Part shown: piece by piece, positions 12,001 to 15,000 of the stretch
How positions within the stretch are numbered: position 1 is the stretch's first letter
Layout: each line of letters begins with the position of its first letter
Assembly: GCA_036337435.1 (NCBI GenBank)
Contig: JAYZEG010000050.1
Coordinates: 1-15,390 of the forward strand
Direction: 5' to 3'
Origin: Myxococcota bacterium
GTDB taxonomy: Bacteria > Myxococcota_A > Bradymonadia > UBA7976 > UBA1532
Length of the DNA: 15,390 nucleotides
Made by a program: the position numbers

Positions 12001-15000
12001 ATTCTCGTTGGATAAAATCAGTGATCTGTTCATACTCACGCTGTGCTGCAGCAAACAGAGCCTTCTTGCCCGTTGGGGCTGTCCGAAACATATGGAGATA
12101 GCTGCGCAAAGATTGGCTTTCTGCGGATCTCAAATTCGTATCGAGCAACATCGTCCACACGAGCTTTCTTGGACACCGACCATTGATGGCTGTCGCCGTG
12201 GAAGGACCCACGGCCCGCTCGAAGATAGACTGTACATTTTTGTAAAAGTACCAAACTTGAGCACGGACCTCGACGCTGCCCTCCGGCAGTGAATAGGGGA
12301 AGTTATCCGCTGTGTGTATCGCCGATTCTTCGAGCGTTTGCGCGATACGCGCCTTGAGCAGACGATCGGCGGTATATTCGATGACACGACTTGGAAAGCT
12401 CGGGTCAAAATGCGGGAAAGGGTTTTCGACTAACGCTTGATAGCCGTACGGACGGGTCAACAGGCTGACCGCAGGTCGCTCGAATTTCGTCGGATTGCGC
12501 TTGTCGTAGGTATGGATGGCAATTTTCAGGAGTTTACCTTCCATGGCCGACTCGAGGCCATCTGAGATCCGGTCATAGTGCTCAGTGAGCACGCTTCGCT
12601 TTTGCTCATGGTTCAGACGGTCTGAAAAAGGGTAGTTGATCGCATATCTATGGAGATGATCTGCACCGGCACTGGTGATGCCAGGAAACCGACCAAAATC
12701 CATGAGAACACGAGCCAGATTGACCCGATGATACGAATCAAGGCCGAGTGCAGAAGCAAGTCGATTGGCGACCAACTCTGCTCCCCAATCACGTTCACGG
12801 ACAAATCCCGGTGGAAATGGCTCATCACCGAGAATTGATACCCCACGCTGATCTAACCGAAATACCGACGGCAGAGATGACCCATCATGGATGACGTCGA
12901 CTAAGACTTTGTCGCGAAACTGCCTGGGGCAGGGATGTCCTAACGGATCGCGGTCGACCGTGACCTCTTCGATAGGTGGGCGAGGTGCGGCCTCGAGTTG
13001 CATGGGTAAAAGATTCACGTTTATCAGCATAGCACCAACGACCGATTGTGCTGAATATATCTTTAAATTATCAAAGCGACGGCCTAGGCTCGGCGCGTCT
13101 ACACGACGGTGTACGGGAGAGTAGATGTATTTTGCTTTGGGATTGGAATCCGAATCATGACTGTCCGATGTCCGCGGGTATTGTATATTGAGCCCTTCAA
13201 TGGCGGCTCTCATGCAGCATTCACTCAGCAATTGTTGTCCATAGACGAGTTCGAATGGACACCATTGACCATGTCTGGTCGGCATTGGAAATGGCGTGCT
13301 CGAGGCGCAGCGGTATACTTTGCTCAAAAGTACGCTGATGTACTGGCTAAACCTTACGACTTGATTTGGTGTGGTTCATTCGTCTGTTTGACGGATCTTT
13401 TAGCACTCTGTCCACAGCTGAACGCCATTCCGAAAGTCTTATATTTTCATGAAAATCAATTGGCGTATCCGGTTCGCTCCGAATTCTCTGGTCCCCGAGA
13501 CCATCATTTTGGCTTTAGCCAAATGGTCTCCGCATTAGCGGCTGATTATTGCGTGTTCAACAGCGAGTGGAATCGGACGAGCTTTCTCGAAGAGGCTAGA
13601 CGGCTGTTGAAACGTATGCCAGATGCCAAACCACCCAATTGGATTGATGCAATCGAGGCCCGATCCAGTGTTCTGCACCTGCCCCTAGGTTTGCCGGAGT
13701 ACTCGGACGAGGCGATGTCGATTTCTCGGTCCACGAGTGAGCCGTTAATCATTTGGAACCATCGCTGGGAACATGACAAAGATCCAGAGACGTTCTTCAG
13801 GGTTATGATGACACTCAATGAACGCAAAACGCCCTTTAGACTTGCGGTTTGCGGTGAGACTTATCGACAGGCACCAAGGATTTTTGCCGAAGCACGCAAA
13901 GCCTTGGATGAACGAATTGTAAGCTGGGGGTATTTAGACGAGCGTTCCCAATACGAACAGTTACTCACTCGTGCTGATATCGCGGTGTCGACAGCCGCTC
14001 ACGAGTTTTTTGGAATCTCGATGATCGAGGCTGTTCACTTTGGGTGCAGACCTTTGGTTCCGGACAGACTGTCCTACCAGGAGCTTTTTCCGGCAGAATA
14101 CCGCTATGTGGATGAGACTCATCTGTTGGACACGCTACAGCGGCTCTGCAAATCATTTGTCGGGGCAGACGCGGCAAGAAACAGGTCGACTTATCGGCGA
14201 CTCGCGCAGCCTTTCGGGCCCTCTCAATTGCGTCGTTATAGCGAGTTCATTAAGTCGGCCCTCCGACCCTGATTCGCAGGGAAACACAACTCGGCCCACC
14301 GTGTAGCAGCTTAGGCCTGATCTATCACTTCGATGGGGGCCGAAGTGAGAAACTTTTGCAGCAGCACGGCCCAGAAAAGAACACCCAATACAAGCGTCAT
14401 GACCACCCCCATAATGGGGCTGTTGAGTTGGTCGATTAAGACCGCTGCTAACAAAATAATCACGGTTTCAGTCGAGCTGAGGATACTGAAATCGAGCGCG
14501 GTAATTCGACCCATGAGATGGCGAGGGGCCACGGTTTGCAAGGTGGCTGTGGTCACCACCCAGTTGTGGCCAGATCCCGCCCCCCAGATAAACAAGCCCA
14601 TTAGAAAAATGTAGGGCGTCTCCGTCCAAGCAAATAAAGCGATTCCAACGAAGGTCAGAATTGGTCCAGAGAGTGTATTTCGAGGGAGAATATGCGCCGG
14701 GAGAAGCGGGCCTACACCCGACCCGAGCGCACGCATCGCATGCATTACGCCCAGTGCGAGTCCCGCTTCGAGAGCAGGTAAGCGCGTCACAGCCACGAAG
14801 TTCAGAAAGAGCCAACCGCCTGCATTGGCCACCATAGGTGGTATTTTTGAAAGCGCGACGACCGTCAGTCTTCGGCTGGAACGGACAAAGTGCCAGGCCT
14901 CAAGCATGTCGCGGATGCCGGGTTTTGGTGGCTTTTCACTGGTGCCACCCGGGCGCAGCTCAGGGAGTCCGAGATAGATAAGCGACGCCAGAATAAATGT

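What a model noticed while it worked through the whole genome (the two positions that open the first line are those of the whole stretch)
13157..14272. Bacterial orthologue of the vertebrate tRNA-queuosine mannosyltransferase QTMAN beside a full queuosine pathway
g01905 (called C50:13271-14272; true start the ATG at 13157, 371 aa) is a full-length homologue of vertebrate QTMAN/GTDC1, which puts mannose on queuosine-34 of tRNA-Asp. The genome makes queuosine de novo (QueC, QueF, Tgt, QueA, QueG), has tRNA-Asp(GUC) and also GluQRS. Sugar-modified queuosine is held to be a vertebrate trait; this gene predicts a glycosylated queuosine in a bacterium and a function for the large bacterial DUF3524 family.
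Evidence so far: Swiss-Prot best five hits all QTMAN: Xenopus 37.8% over 370 aa, E 2e-75; fish, mouse, human 33-36%. Pfam QTMAN_N from model position 33 on the called protein; the genome search finds the whole domain 1-168 at C50:13175-13687, 192.5 bits, open frame 394 aa; start codons. Queuosine genes g00655, g00080, g02011, g02010, g01330; GluQRS g00563; tRNA-Asp C62:20437-20511. Family in 53 of 401 sampled Myxococcota_A genomes, none of 14 control genomes; >6000 bacterial homologues named only DUF3524 or generic glycosyltransferase.
(Added by a program. Inside this text positions count along the whole contig: contig position 1 is position 1 of the stretch shown here. "Call 12" and the like, gene names such as g00115 and contig names such as C1 are that model's own, and its searches are not shown. 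The text may have been shortened before it was handed on; [...] marks where a part breaks off. The agent that wrote the report below was given it as the finding of a first reader that could run no searches.)

Follow-up and report, generated by a model that had tools for sequence, protein, structure and literature searches.

The report
Bacterial homologue of queuosine mannosyltransferase QTMAN
A marine bacterium that makes the tRNA base queuosine also carries an intact copy of the enzyme family that animals use to put a sugar on that base, which predicts, but does not prove, sugar-decorated queuosine in bacterial tRNA.

Summary
Window 13157-14272 (+) is an intact 371-aa ORF with a complete QTMAN_N (formerly DUF3524) domain plus a GT1 domain. 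It is 38-42% identical to named animal QTMANs. The motifs YFHENQ and HRWEHDK are invariant, including the lysine that most likely matches human catalytic K296. The AlphaFold model is a confident retaining-type GT-B fold. The genome holds QueC, QueF, Tgt, QueA, QueG, GluQRS, tRNA-Asp(GUC) and a ManC-like gene.

The function rests on homology. No queuosine gene, or any other neighbour, recurs across 160 related loci. QueA is near-universal in the window's phylum, so co-occurrence has no power there. In another phylum QueA occurs in 15 of 15 carriers against 14 of 20 non-carriers, which is suggestive but not corrected for kinship. The one fusion to a tRNA methylase domain is a singleton.

Databases already name bacterial members after QTMAN, and manQ is also reported in insects. 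My best reading, at about 0.6, is that it glycosylates queuosine-34 in bacterial tRNA. Sugar and target tRNA are open. This is a new, untested member of a known family.

The parts
13157..14272 (+). Coding sequence of the QTMAN-like glycosyltransferase (371 aa plus stop), protein P0001
   Evidence: ORF list and translation. The start is supported by Pfam model position 1 falling at residue 7 and by the 371-aa relative P0003 aligning from residue 1.
13175..13687 (+). QTMAN_N (PF12038, formerly DUF3524) domain, residues 7-177. This is the N-terminal Rossmann-like half of the GT-B fold, expected to hold the acceptor site. It includes the motifs GRHWKWRAR (41-49) and YFHENQ (96-101).
   Evidence: Pfam 190.1 bits over model 1-168/168; genome search 192.5 bits. 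Y96, F97, H98, E99 and Q101 are invariant in 78 of 78 rows, and N100 in at least 90% of them.
13733..14089 (+). Glycos_transf_1 (PF00534) domain, residues 193-311: the nucleotide-sugar-binding half of the GT-B fold
   Evidence: Pfam 39.8 bits, cut-off 26.4. AlphaFold model with mean pLDDT 93.9; Foldseek hits to retaining GT-B enzymes.
13760..13780 (+). Motif HRWEHDK (residues 202-208). K208 (codon 13778-13780) is the likely counterpart of human QTMAN K296.
   Evidence: W200, R203, E205, D207 and K208 are invariant in 78 of 78 rows. The same motif puts the lysine at residue 289 of a 451-aa bat isoform. K296A abolishes manQ in human cells (passage of bioRxiv 10.64898/2026.06.28.735034). The equivalence to K296 is inferred, because the 458-aa human length is recalled.
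14003..14029 (+). E-x7-E motif (E283-FFGISMI-E291), typical of retaining GT4-type GT-B enzymes
   Evidence: E283, G286 and E291 are invariant in 16 of 16 rows of A1. E291 and G286 are at least 90% conserved in A2. That the motif is a GT4 hallmark is recalled knowledge.
13004..13156 (.). A 153-bp AT-rich divergent intergenic region between the QTMAN-like gene and the minus-strand ORF 11774-13003. It presumably holds both promoters.
   Evidence: The most likely start of the minus-strand ORF is the ATG at 13003 (MQLEAAPRPP...), read. One promoter-like site lies on the minus strand at 13074-13045, which is no more than shuffles give.

Best explanation
The gene encodes a soluble retaining GT-B glycosyltransferase of the QTMAN/GTDC1 family. 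The most likely mechanism is as follows. The C-terminal half binds a nucleotide sugar through K208 and the E283-x7-E291 motif; by analogy the donor is GDP-mannose, which the genome can probably make. The family-specific N-terminal half (QTMAN_N) binds the anticodon loop of a tRNA that already carries queuosine at position 34, made by the genome's own QueC/QueF/Tgt/QueA/QueG route. The enzyme then transfers the hexose onto a hydroxyl of the cyclopentenediol ring, giving a glycosylated queuosine.

Shown here: the gene is intact, all family-invariant residues are present, the fold is GT-B, and the substrate pathway and tRNA-Asp(GUC) are in the genome.

Inferred: the acceptor, the sugar, and which of the Asp/Tyr/His/Asn tRNAs is the target. 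The gene is patchy among relatives (46 of 401 genomes of the phylum), as expected for an optional decoration.
For: 1. Family membership is complete. QTMAN_N matches 1-168 of 168 positions at 190 bits, with a GT1 domain after it.
2. Identity to named animal QTMANs is 38-42% over the full length. In alignment A1 the acceptor-side N-domain is 39-43% identical to the four vertebrate and one Ciona rows. That is as close as or closer than to other bacterial clades (36-38% to P0186 and P0190), so the animal enzymes are not outliers in the family.
3. Fifteen positions are invariant in 78 of 78 bacterial and animal rows, including Y96, F97, H98, E99 and Q101 in the N-domain and W200, R203, E205, D207 and K208. 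K208 most likely matches human K296, whose K296A mutant makes no manQ.
4. The AlphaFold model is confident (pLDDT 93.9). Its nearest solved folds are retaining GT-B enzymes, which fits an alpha-linked product.
5. The substrate is available: Tgt, QueA, QueG, QueC and QueF, tRNA-Asp(GUC) and tRNA-His(GUG), and a ManC-like gene at 346.6 bits over the guanylyltransferase part of the model.
6. QueA is present in 49 of 50 carrier genomes from several phyla. In the phylum of G041 it is present in 15 of 15 carriers against 14 of the 20 first-listed non-carriers (13 of 19 without G468, which the tool flags as unpublished). One-sided Fisher p is 0.024 and 0.020.
7. One bacterial-clade protein (P0186) fuses the whole enzyme to a TrmO_N tRNA-methylase domain at 75.8 bits.
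8. Contigs from two runs of one seawater metatranscriptome sample lie inside the ORF at 99% likeness or more. This is only a weak hint of transcription.
Against: - The function is by homology to a single characterised clade. No bacterial member has been tested in any paper I could search.
- No queuosine or tRNA gene is a neighbour here. Apart from antisense shadows of the gene itself, no neighbour family recurs in more than 2 of 24 clades across 160 loci.
- In the window's own phylum QueA is near-universal: 45 of 46 carriers against 349 of 355 non-carriers, p = 0.81. Co-occurrence carries no information there.
- The signal in the second phylum is not corrected for kinship and may only reflect lineage.
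- One carrier MAG (G017) shows neither QueA nor Tgt.
- The TrmO fusion is a single protein on a single contig. No other such fusion was found, and no TrmO or SpoU neighbour turned up in 163 loci.
- Other 'fusions' in the same list are unrelated or look like gene-call artefacts.
- GluQRS in the same genome already decorates queuosine of tRNA-Asp in other bacteria (established knowledge). The Asp target is therefore uncertain.
- The ManC-like match is below the cut-off of the bifunctional model.
Confidence: 0.6

Rival explanations
1. The protein has the same fold and family but a different acceptor. On this reading the bacterial QTMAN_N proteins glycosylate something other than queuosine in tRNA (a small metabolite, lipid, protein or cell-envelope precursor), and the queuosine activity arose only in the eukaryote-type clade.
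For: - The eukaryote-type sequences form their own clade with SH-aLRT 100, so a change of function on that branch is possible.
- No genomic link to queuosine or tRNA genes was found in 160 loci.
- JGI's automatic names read 'glycosyltransferase involved in cell wall biosynthesis'.
- The nearest solved folds act on small molecules or glycans (MshA, BshA, GlgM, glycogen synthase).
- One carrier MAG lacks both QueA and Tgt.
Against: - The acceptor-side domain is the family-specific part, and it is as conserved between this protein and animals (39-43%) as between bacterial clades (36-38%).
- The N-domain positions Y96, F97, H98, E99 and Q101 are invariant in all 78 rows.
- No envelope or polysaccharide genes flank the gene.
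- The JGI name is a generic GT1 label.
- There is a TrmO_N fusion in a bacterial clade.
Confidence: 0.27
2. It is an RNA glycosyltransferase, but not for mature queuosine. It would act on another nucleoside: the precursor epoxyqueuosine, another hypermodified tRNA base, or 7-deazaguanine bases in DNA.
For: - The TrmO_N fusion points to the anticodon loop in general, since TrmO acts at position 37 (established knowledge).
- In mosquitoes manQ was mapped to tRNA-Tyr and tRNA-His rather than Asp, so target choice in this family is plastic.
Against: - QueG is present, so mature queuosine is expected in this genome.
- Only 1 partial hit (C-terminal half, 31% identity) was found among the viral contigs, where 7-deazaguanine DNA modification systems are common. 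This gives no support for a DNA or phage role.
- The invariant N-domain motifs argue for the same acceptor group as in animals.
Confidence: 0.1
3. The gene is a decaying or silent remnant with no current function.
For: - Its distribution is patchy: 46 of 401 genomes of the phylum.
- No clear promoter or ribosome-binding site was found.
Against: - The frame is open over the full length and every invariant residue is kept.
- A 79%-identical, equally long relative exists.
- The model is confident throughout.
- Metatranscriptome contigs lie on the ORF.
Confidence: 0.03

Closest known systems
QTMAN / GTDC1 (tRNA-queuosine alpha-mannosyltransferase of vertebrates; Zhao et al. 2023, Cell, known to me only through citing papers)
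   Same: - The architecture is the same: QTMAN_N plus a GT1 domain.
- Identity is 38-42%.
- The motifs YFHENQ, FNS, HRWEHDK and E-x7-E are shared, including the lysine that most likely matches catalytic K296.
- The predicted fold is a retaining GT-B, as an alpha-mannoside product requires.
   Different: - The bacterial protein lacks the low-complexity linker of roughly 100 residues that vertebrates carry between the two halves. Ciona and the protist-like sequences lack it too.
- It lies outside the eukaryote-type clade.
- The host makes queuosine de novo instead of salvaging queuine.
- Activity, sugar and target tRNA are untested.
GluQRS (YadB), the bacterial enzyme that glutamylates queuosine-34 of tRNA-Asp
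   Same: It is the only decoration of queuosine known in bacteria, and it acts on the same cyclopentenediol ring (established knowledge). A copy is present in this genome (NF004315, 269.1 bits).
   Different: - It has an unrelated fold (a truncated glutamyl-tRNA synthetase).
- It adds an amino acid through an ester bond, not a sugar.
- If both enzymes act on tRNA-Asp they would compete. Whether they do is open.
QTGAL / B3GNTL1 (tRNA-queuosine galactosyltransferase of vertebrates)
   Same: It also puts a hexose on queuosine-34, of tRNA-Tyr (passages).
   Different: - It is a different enzyme that makes a beta-glycoside by an SN2-type reaction at the other hydroxyl.
- It was not searched for in this genome.
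Retaining GT-B glycosyltransferases with solved structures (Pyrococcus glycogen synthase 3fro, GlgM 6tvp, MshA 3c48, BshA 3mbo)
   Same: The overall two-domain GT-B fold is shared, with Foldseek E-values from 3e-14 to 4e-12 and TM-scores of 0.66-0.71 for most.
   Different: - Identity is only 13-16% for these four.
- Their acceptors are small molecules or glucans.
- The PDB sequence search found no relative at E <= 0.001, so no structure of this family is solved.

Membership tests
QTMAN / GTDC1 family (Pfam QTMAN_N, PF12038) | Complete QTMAN_N domain above the curated cut-off | tested here: met
   190.1 bits against a cut-off of 25, model positions 1-168 of 168, residues 7-177; 192.5 bits in the genome search.
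QTMAN / GTDC1 family (Pfam QTMAN_N, PF12038) | C-terminal GT1 half with the catalytic lysine (human K296) and the E-x7-E motif | tested here: met
   Glycos_transf_1 matches residues 193-311. K208 lies in the motif HRWEHDK and is invariant in 78 of 78 rows. E283 and E291 are invariant in 16 of 16 rows. The match of K208 to K296 is inferred from a bat isoform (K289 of 451 aa) and a recalled human length.
QTMAN / GTDC1 family (Pfam QTMAN_N, PF12038) | GT-B fold of the retaining type | tested here: met
   AlphaFold model with pLDDT 93.9 and pTM 0.91. The best solved matches are retaining GT-B enzymes.
QTMAN orthologue in the strict sense | Groups with the experimentally characterised animal enzymes in a tree, to the exclusion of other family members | tested here: inconclusive
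   Animal and protist-like rows form a separate clade (SH-aLRT 100). The window's protein sits in the adjacent 68-row bacterial clade, joined by a branch of support 70. The tree has a midpoint root only.
QTMAN (function) | Substrate present: queuosine-34 tRNA with a GUN anticodon | tested here: met
   Tgt, QueA, QueG, QueC and QueF are present, as are tRNA-Asp(GUC) and tRNA-His(GUG). tRNA-Tyr and tRNA-Asn are not in this 87%-complete assembly, which holds only 29 tRNAs.
QTMAN (function) | Donor GDP-mannose available | tested here: inconclusive
   A ManC-like gene on C58 scores 346.6 bits over positions 1-353 of the bifunctional GMP_PMI model, below its cut-off of 372.95.
QTMAN (function) | Transfers mannose to queuosine-34 of tRNA-Asp | not testable with these tools
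   This needs mass spectrometry of tRNA or an enzyme assay.
Vertebrate QTMAN subtype | Long low-complexity linker between the two halves | tested here: not met
   The linker is absent from the window's protein and from all bacterial rows, and also from Ciona and the protist-like rows. It is therefore not a family-defining feature.

The most novel reading that the evidence does not exclude
Bacteria of at least six phyla (labels seen: Myxococcota, Planctomycetota, Thermodesulfobacteriota, Nitrospirota, Pseudomonadota, Actinomycetota) add a sugar to queuosine in their own tRNA. This modification has never been reported outside animals. On this reading the animal enzyme QTMAN descends from the bacterial family, so both the base and its sugar decoration would be of bacterial origin. 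In genomes that also hold GluQRS, two rival decorations of the same base would coexist.
Probability: 0.5. Interest if true: 0.75.

Novelty: new member of a known kind. Interest (0 to 1): 0.55.

Why it matters
Glycosylated queuosine is treated in the papers I could read as an animal feature. Its purpose is still debated: translation rate, growth, and protection from tRNA cleavage have all been proposed. If the large bacterial branch of the family does the same chemistry, three things follow.
- The catalogue of bacterial tRNA modifications gains a new entry.
- A family of more than 6000 sequence clusters gets a function.
- The role of the sugar could be studied in fast, genetically simple hosts, alongside the competing glutamyl decoration.

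The claim is directly testable with existing cultures and standard tRNA mass spectrometry.

The caveat is that the sequence link is already visible in public annotation. What would be new is the experimental demonstration, not the homology.

Tried and rejected
1. **Gene neighbourhood.** I called ORFs in 79 genome loci and 80 metagenome loci plus the window, and clustered them by BLASTP. Only lineage-bound synteny appeared, in the Desulfobulbia group: by my reading of the printed sequences GlgB, a TerB-DnaJ protein, FtsY, IspH, YqgE and RlmH. The only families in more than 2 of 24 clades were antisense shadows of the gene itself.
2. **Domain fusions as a link to tRNA.**
   - P0186 (TrmO_N) is a singleton: 1 member on 1 contig, and no second fusion among 5 hits.
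   - Its own contig was not recovered in the metagenome scan; the best locus was 71% identical over residues 1-359.
   - tblastn with the TrmO and SpoU parts found nothing in 163 loci.
   - P0210 (SpoU methylase fusion) belongs to the eukaryote-type clade, so it says nothing about bacteria.
   - Other long forms carry unrelated domains (HisKA/HATPase, DHQS_C, Nif11, M20 peptidase) or look like gene-call artefacts.
3. **Co-occurrence with QueA in the window's phylum.** No power: 394 of 401 genomes have QueA.
4. **Isoelectric point as a sign of RNA binding.** Uninformative: P0001 is 7.63, the median of the 120 best bacterial rows (P0001 among them) is 6.54, and the three vertebrate QTMANs computed are 6.4-6.9 (Ciona 8.55).
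5. **PDB sequence search.** 0 hits.
6. **NCBIfam.** No specific model; only sub-threshold GT hits.
7. **Viral contigs.** 1 partial hit.
8. **Promoter and terminator scan.** No more sites than shuffles give.
9. **Read laying.** RNA contigs from two runs of one sample cover parts of the ORF. The parts without cover, and the depths, say nothing.
10. **Literature.**
    - The original QTMAN paper (Zhao et al. 2023) is not held.
    - 'DUF3524' is in 0 papers. In one search no listed paper holds 'PF12038', 'IPR022701' or 'glycosyl-queuosine'; all 25 listed of the 57 found match 'glycosylated queuosine' only.
    - The 9 papers that hold both 'QTMAN' and 'bacteria' were found. The six that I searched for passages on bacterial homologues held none.
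Full report
**What is in the window**

Positions 13157-14272 (+) hold an open frame of 371 codons starting at an ATG. The longest frame starts 16 codons upstream at a GTG at 13109. Pfam finds a complete QTMAN_N domain (PF12038, formerly DUF3524): residues 7-177, model positions 1-168 of 168, 190.1 bits against a cut-off of 25. A Glycos_transf_1 domain follows at residues 193-311. 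The ATG at 13157 is the best start for three reasons:
- The family model begins at residue 7.
- The closest relative (P0003, 79% identical) is also 371 aa and aligns from residue 1.
- Other bacterial members begin a few residues before the first strand.

The long minus-strand frame 11774-13327, which seems to overlap the start, most likely begins at the ATG at 13003. That leaves a 153-bp divergent intergenic region.

**The protein**

An alignment with named animal enzymes gives 39-42% identity in A1 (bat, turtles, fish, Ciona) and 38-40% in a 78-row alignment (A2). I obtained the animal sequences by searching only for longer proteins with the first 240 residues.

Fifteen positions are invariant in all 78 bacterial and animal rows: Y96, F97, H98, E99, Q101, P105, W200, R203, E205, D207, K208, P210, G233, Y266 and P302. 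E283, G286 and E291 (an E-x7-E motif) are invariant in the 16-row alignment.

The lysine of HRWEHDK is residue 208 here and residue 289 in a 451-aa bat isoform. A 2026 preprint, of which I read passages, states that human K296 was proposed as catalytic and that K296A fails to restore manQ in knock-out cells (bioRxiv 10.64898/2026.06.28.735034). With a recalled human length of 458 aa, K296 is most likely this lysine. That step is inferred.

Vertebrate proteins carry a low-complexity insert of roughly 100 residues between the two halves. Bacteria, Ciona and the protist-like sequences lack it.

The AlphaFold model is confident (mean pLDDT 93.9, pTM 0.91) and shows two Rossmann-like halves. Foldseek finds retaining GT-B enzymes (glycogen synthase, GlgM, MshA, BshA, sucrose-phosphate synthase) at 10-16% identity. 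The PDB sequence search finds nothing at E <= 0.001, so no structure of this family is solved.

**Does the acceptor side look conserved?**

In GT-B enzymes the N-terminal half usually holds the acceptor (established knowledge), and here it is the family-specific domain. Its identity between the window's protein and the five animal rows of A1 (four vertebrates and Ciona) is 39-43%. Against two other bacterial clades (P0186, P0190) it is 36-38%. For the C-terminal half the figures are 48-53% and 45-48%. The animal enzymes are therefore not divergent outliers, and the N-domain positions of the YFHENQ motif never vary. This is my main argument for one shared acceptor. It is an inference, not a test.

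**Family tree**

In a quick maximum-likelihood tree of 122 rows, thinned at 62% identity, the five named animal rows fall in a 16-row clade with SH-aLRT 100. Of the other eleven rows, five form a protist-like subgroup, five are unnamed, and one is the SpoU fusion P0210. I left out P0002, P0130, P0187 and P0188 as truncated, chimeric or very long.

This clade joins, by a weak branch (70), a 68-row bacterial clade that holds the window's protein. That clade carries Myxococcota, Planctomycetota and Oceanobacter-type members. The Desulfobulbia and P0186-type clades lie across the midpoint root.

The tree fits an old family in which the eukaryotic enzymes are one branch among bacterial ones. Strict orthology and the direction of any transfer are not settled.

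**The genome**

The assembly is 87% complete in 95 contigs. It holds:
- Tgt and QueA side by side on C56.
- QueG (295 bits, cut-off 200), QueC and QueF.
- A GluQRS that passes NF004315 (269.1 bits against 250) though not TIGR03838 (250 against 276.7).
- A ManC-like gene (346.6 bits over the guanylyltransferase part of the model, below the bifunctional model's cut-off).
- tRNA-Asp(GUC) at C62 c[20437,20511] and tRNA-His(GUG).

Only 29 tRNAs are assembled, and Tyr and Asn are missing. Queuosine in tRNA is thus expected, and probably GDP-mannose too.

**Independent links to queuosine or tRNA**

- *Neighbourhood: none.* Across 79 genome loci, 80 metagenome loci and the window, the only neighbour families in more than 2 of 24 clades were antisense shadows of the gene.
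- *Fusions: weak.* Among the longer proteins, P0186 joins the whole enzyme to a TrmO_N tRNA-methylase domain (75.8 bits) and sits in a bacterial clade. It is one protein on one contig, and no second example exists among the 5 hits of a dedicated search. P0210 joins a SpoU methylase domain but belongs to the eukaryote-type clade. A Ciona protein carries zf-U1 and CCCH zinc fingers. Other long forms carry unrelated domains.
- *Co-occurrence: mixed.*
  - QueA is found in 49 of 50 carrier genomes from several phyla.
  - The exception, G017, also lacks Tgt. It is a MAG of unknown completeness.
  - In the window's phylum 46 of 401 genomes carry the gene, but 394 of 401 have QueA (45 of 46 carriers against 349 of 355 non-carriers, p = 0.81), so nothing can be learnt there.
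  - The one carrier there without QueA, G333, has Tgt on a contig that ends 149 bases beyond it, on the side where queA lies in this genome.
  - In the phylum of G041 (a MAG labelled Coriobacteriia) 15 of 401 genomes carry the gene, and all 15 have QueA.
  - That compares with 14 of the 20 first-listed non-carriers, or 13 of 19 without G468, which the tool marks as unpublished. One-sided Fisher p is 0.024 and 0.020.
  - Counting only strong QueA matches (360 bits or more) gives 15 of 15 against 8 of 20.
  - No taxonomy was given for these genomes, so kinship is uncorrected and the signal may be lineage alone.
- *Phages: none.* There was 1 partial hit in the viral contigs.
- *Expression: weak.* Contigs from two runs of one seawater metatranscriptome sample match inside the ORF at 99% or more (13259-13409, 13477-13627, 14019-14235). 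DNA carry-over cannot be excluded.

**Literature**

I could not read Zhao et al. 2023, which is not held. What I say about it comes from passages in citing papers.
- QTMAN uses GDP-mannose and makes an alpha-glycoside on the allylic hydroxyl of queuosine in tRNA-Asp. It is selective for that hydroxyl (PMC12518689).
- manQ is not limited to vertebrates. It was mapped to tRNA-Tyr and later tRNA-His in Aedes aegypti, where QTMAN orthologues are said to be present in nearly all Diptera (PMC11705514; PMC13737055). It was also measured in Drosophila (bioRxiv 10.64898/2026.03.22.713446). Target tRNA therefore varies within the family.
- No paper in the library holds 'DUF3524'. In one search none of the 25 listed papers holds 'PF12038', 'IPR022701' or 'glycosyl-queuosine'; all of them match 'glycosylated queuosine' only.
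- In the six papers that I searched for passages on bacterial homologues there were none; one search found 9 papers that hold both 'QTMAN' and 'bacteria'.
- Public annotation already carries the link. Pfam renamed the domain. NCBI and UniRef name an Oceanobacter kriegii protein 'tRNA-queuosine alpha-mannosyltransferase domain-containing protein'. The ESM Atlas labels bacterial clusters (Pseudomonadota, Planctomycetota, Thermodesulfobacteriota, Actinomycetota) as 'tRNA-queuosine alpha-mannosyltransferase family protein'.

**Verdict**

The gene is real, intact and a clear member of the QTMAN family. Its host has the substrate pathway. The most likely function, at about 0.6, is transfer of a hexose to queuosine-34 of one or more GUN-anticodon tRNAs. 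Mannose and tRNA-Asp are only the default guesses, and the presence of GluQRS makes the Asp target uncertain.

The main rival, at about 0.27, is a different acceptor in the bacterial branches. The finding is a new, untested member of a known kind rather than a new kind of system, and the homology is already on record in databases. It still sets up a cheap and decisive experiment whose positive outcome would surprise the tRNA-modification field. That is why I score interest at 0.55.

Noticed in passing
window 162-5831 (+): A very large ORF (1889 aa) made of repeated Fasciclin (FAS1) domains: Pfam 604.8 bits with 8 matched stretches. It is probably a secreted or surface adhesion-type protein.
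   Followed up: no
window 7205-8743 (+) and 9950-10600 (-); loci L005, L019, L023: An HtrA-like protease with two PDZ domains, and an SRPBCC (Polyketide_cyc2) protein, lie within 6 kb of the gene. Relatives at 30-33% identity sit 1-3 kb from the QTMAN-like gene in three Planctomycetota-labelled loci (protease in L005, L019 and L023; SRPBCC in L019). This could be chance or a shared block.
   Followed up: partly
window 11774-13003 (-): A 409-aa ORF transcribed divergently from the QTMAN-like gene has no Pfam or NCBIfam family and no relative in the other 160 loci.
   Followed up: partly
proteins P0186, P0210, P0140 (database hits, not in the window): Fusions of the QTMAN-like enzyme to RNA-related domains: TrmO_N (P0186, bacterial clade, singleton), SpoU methylase (P0210, eukaryote-type clade, 3 contigs), and zf-U1 plus CCCH zinc fingers (Ciona P0140).
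   Followed up: yes
genomes G002, G007, G011, G016; G456-G458, G467, G468, G471: A second, weaker class of QueA-family matches turns up. It scores about 150-250 bits against 330-470 bits for the main copy. Sometimes it occurs beside a normal QueA and sometimes alone. It may be a paralogue with another role.
   Followed up: no
window 10609-11720 (+): A cupin gene and a HAD-family hydrolase gene overlap by 4 bases and look like one operon. Any link to sugar metabolism was not examined.
   Followed up: no
G000, whole genome: ARAGORN calls a tRNA-SeC among the 29 tRNAs, which hints at selenocysteine use.
   Followed up: no
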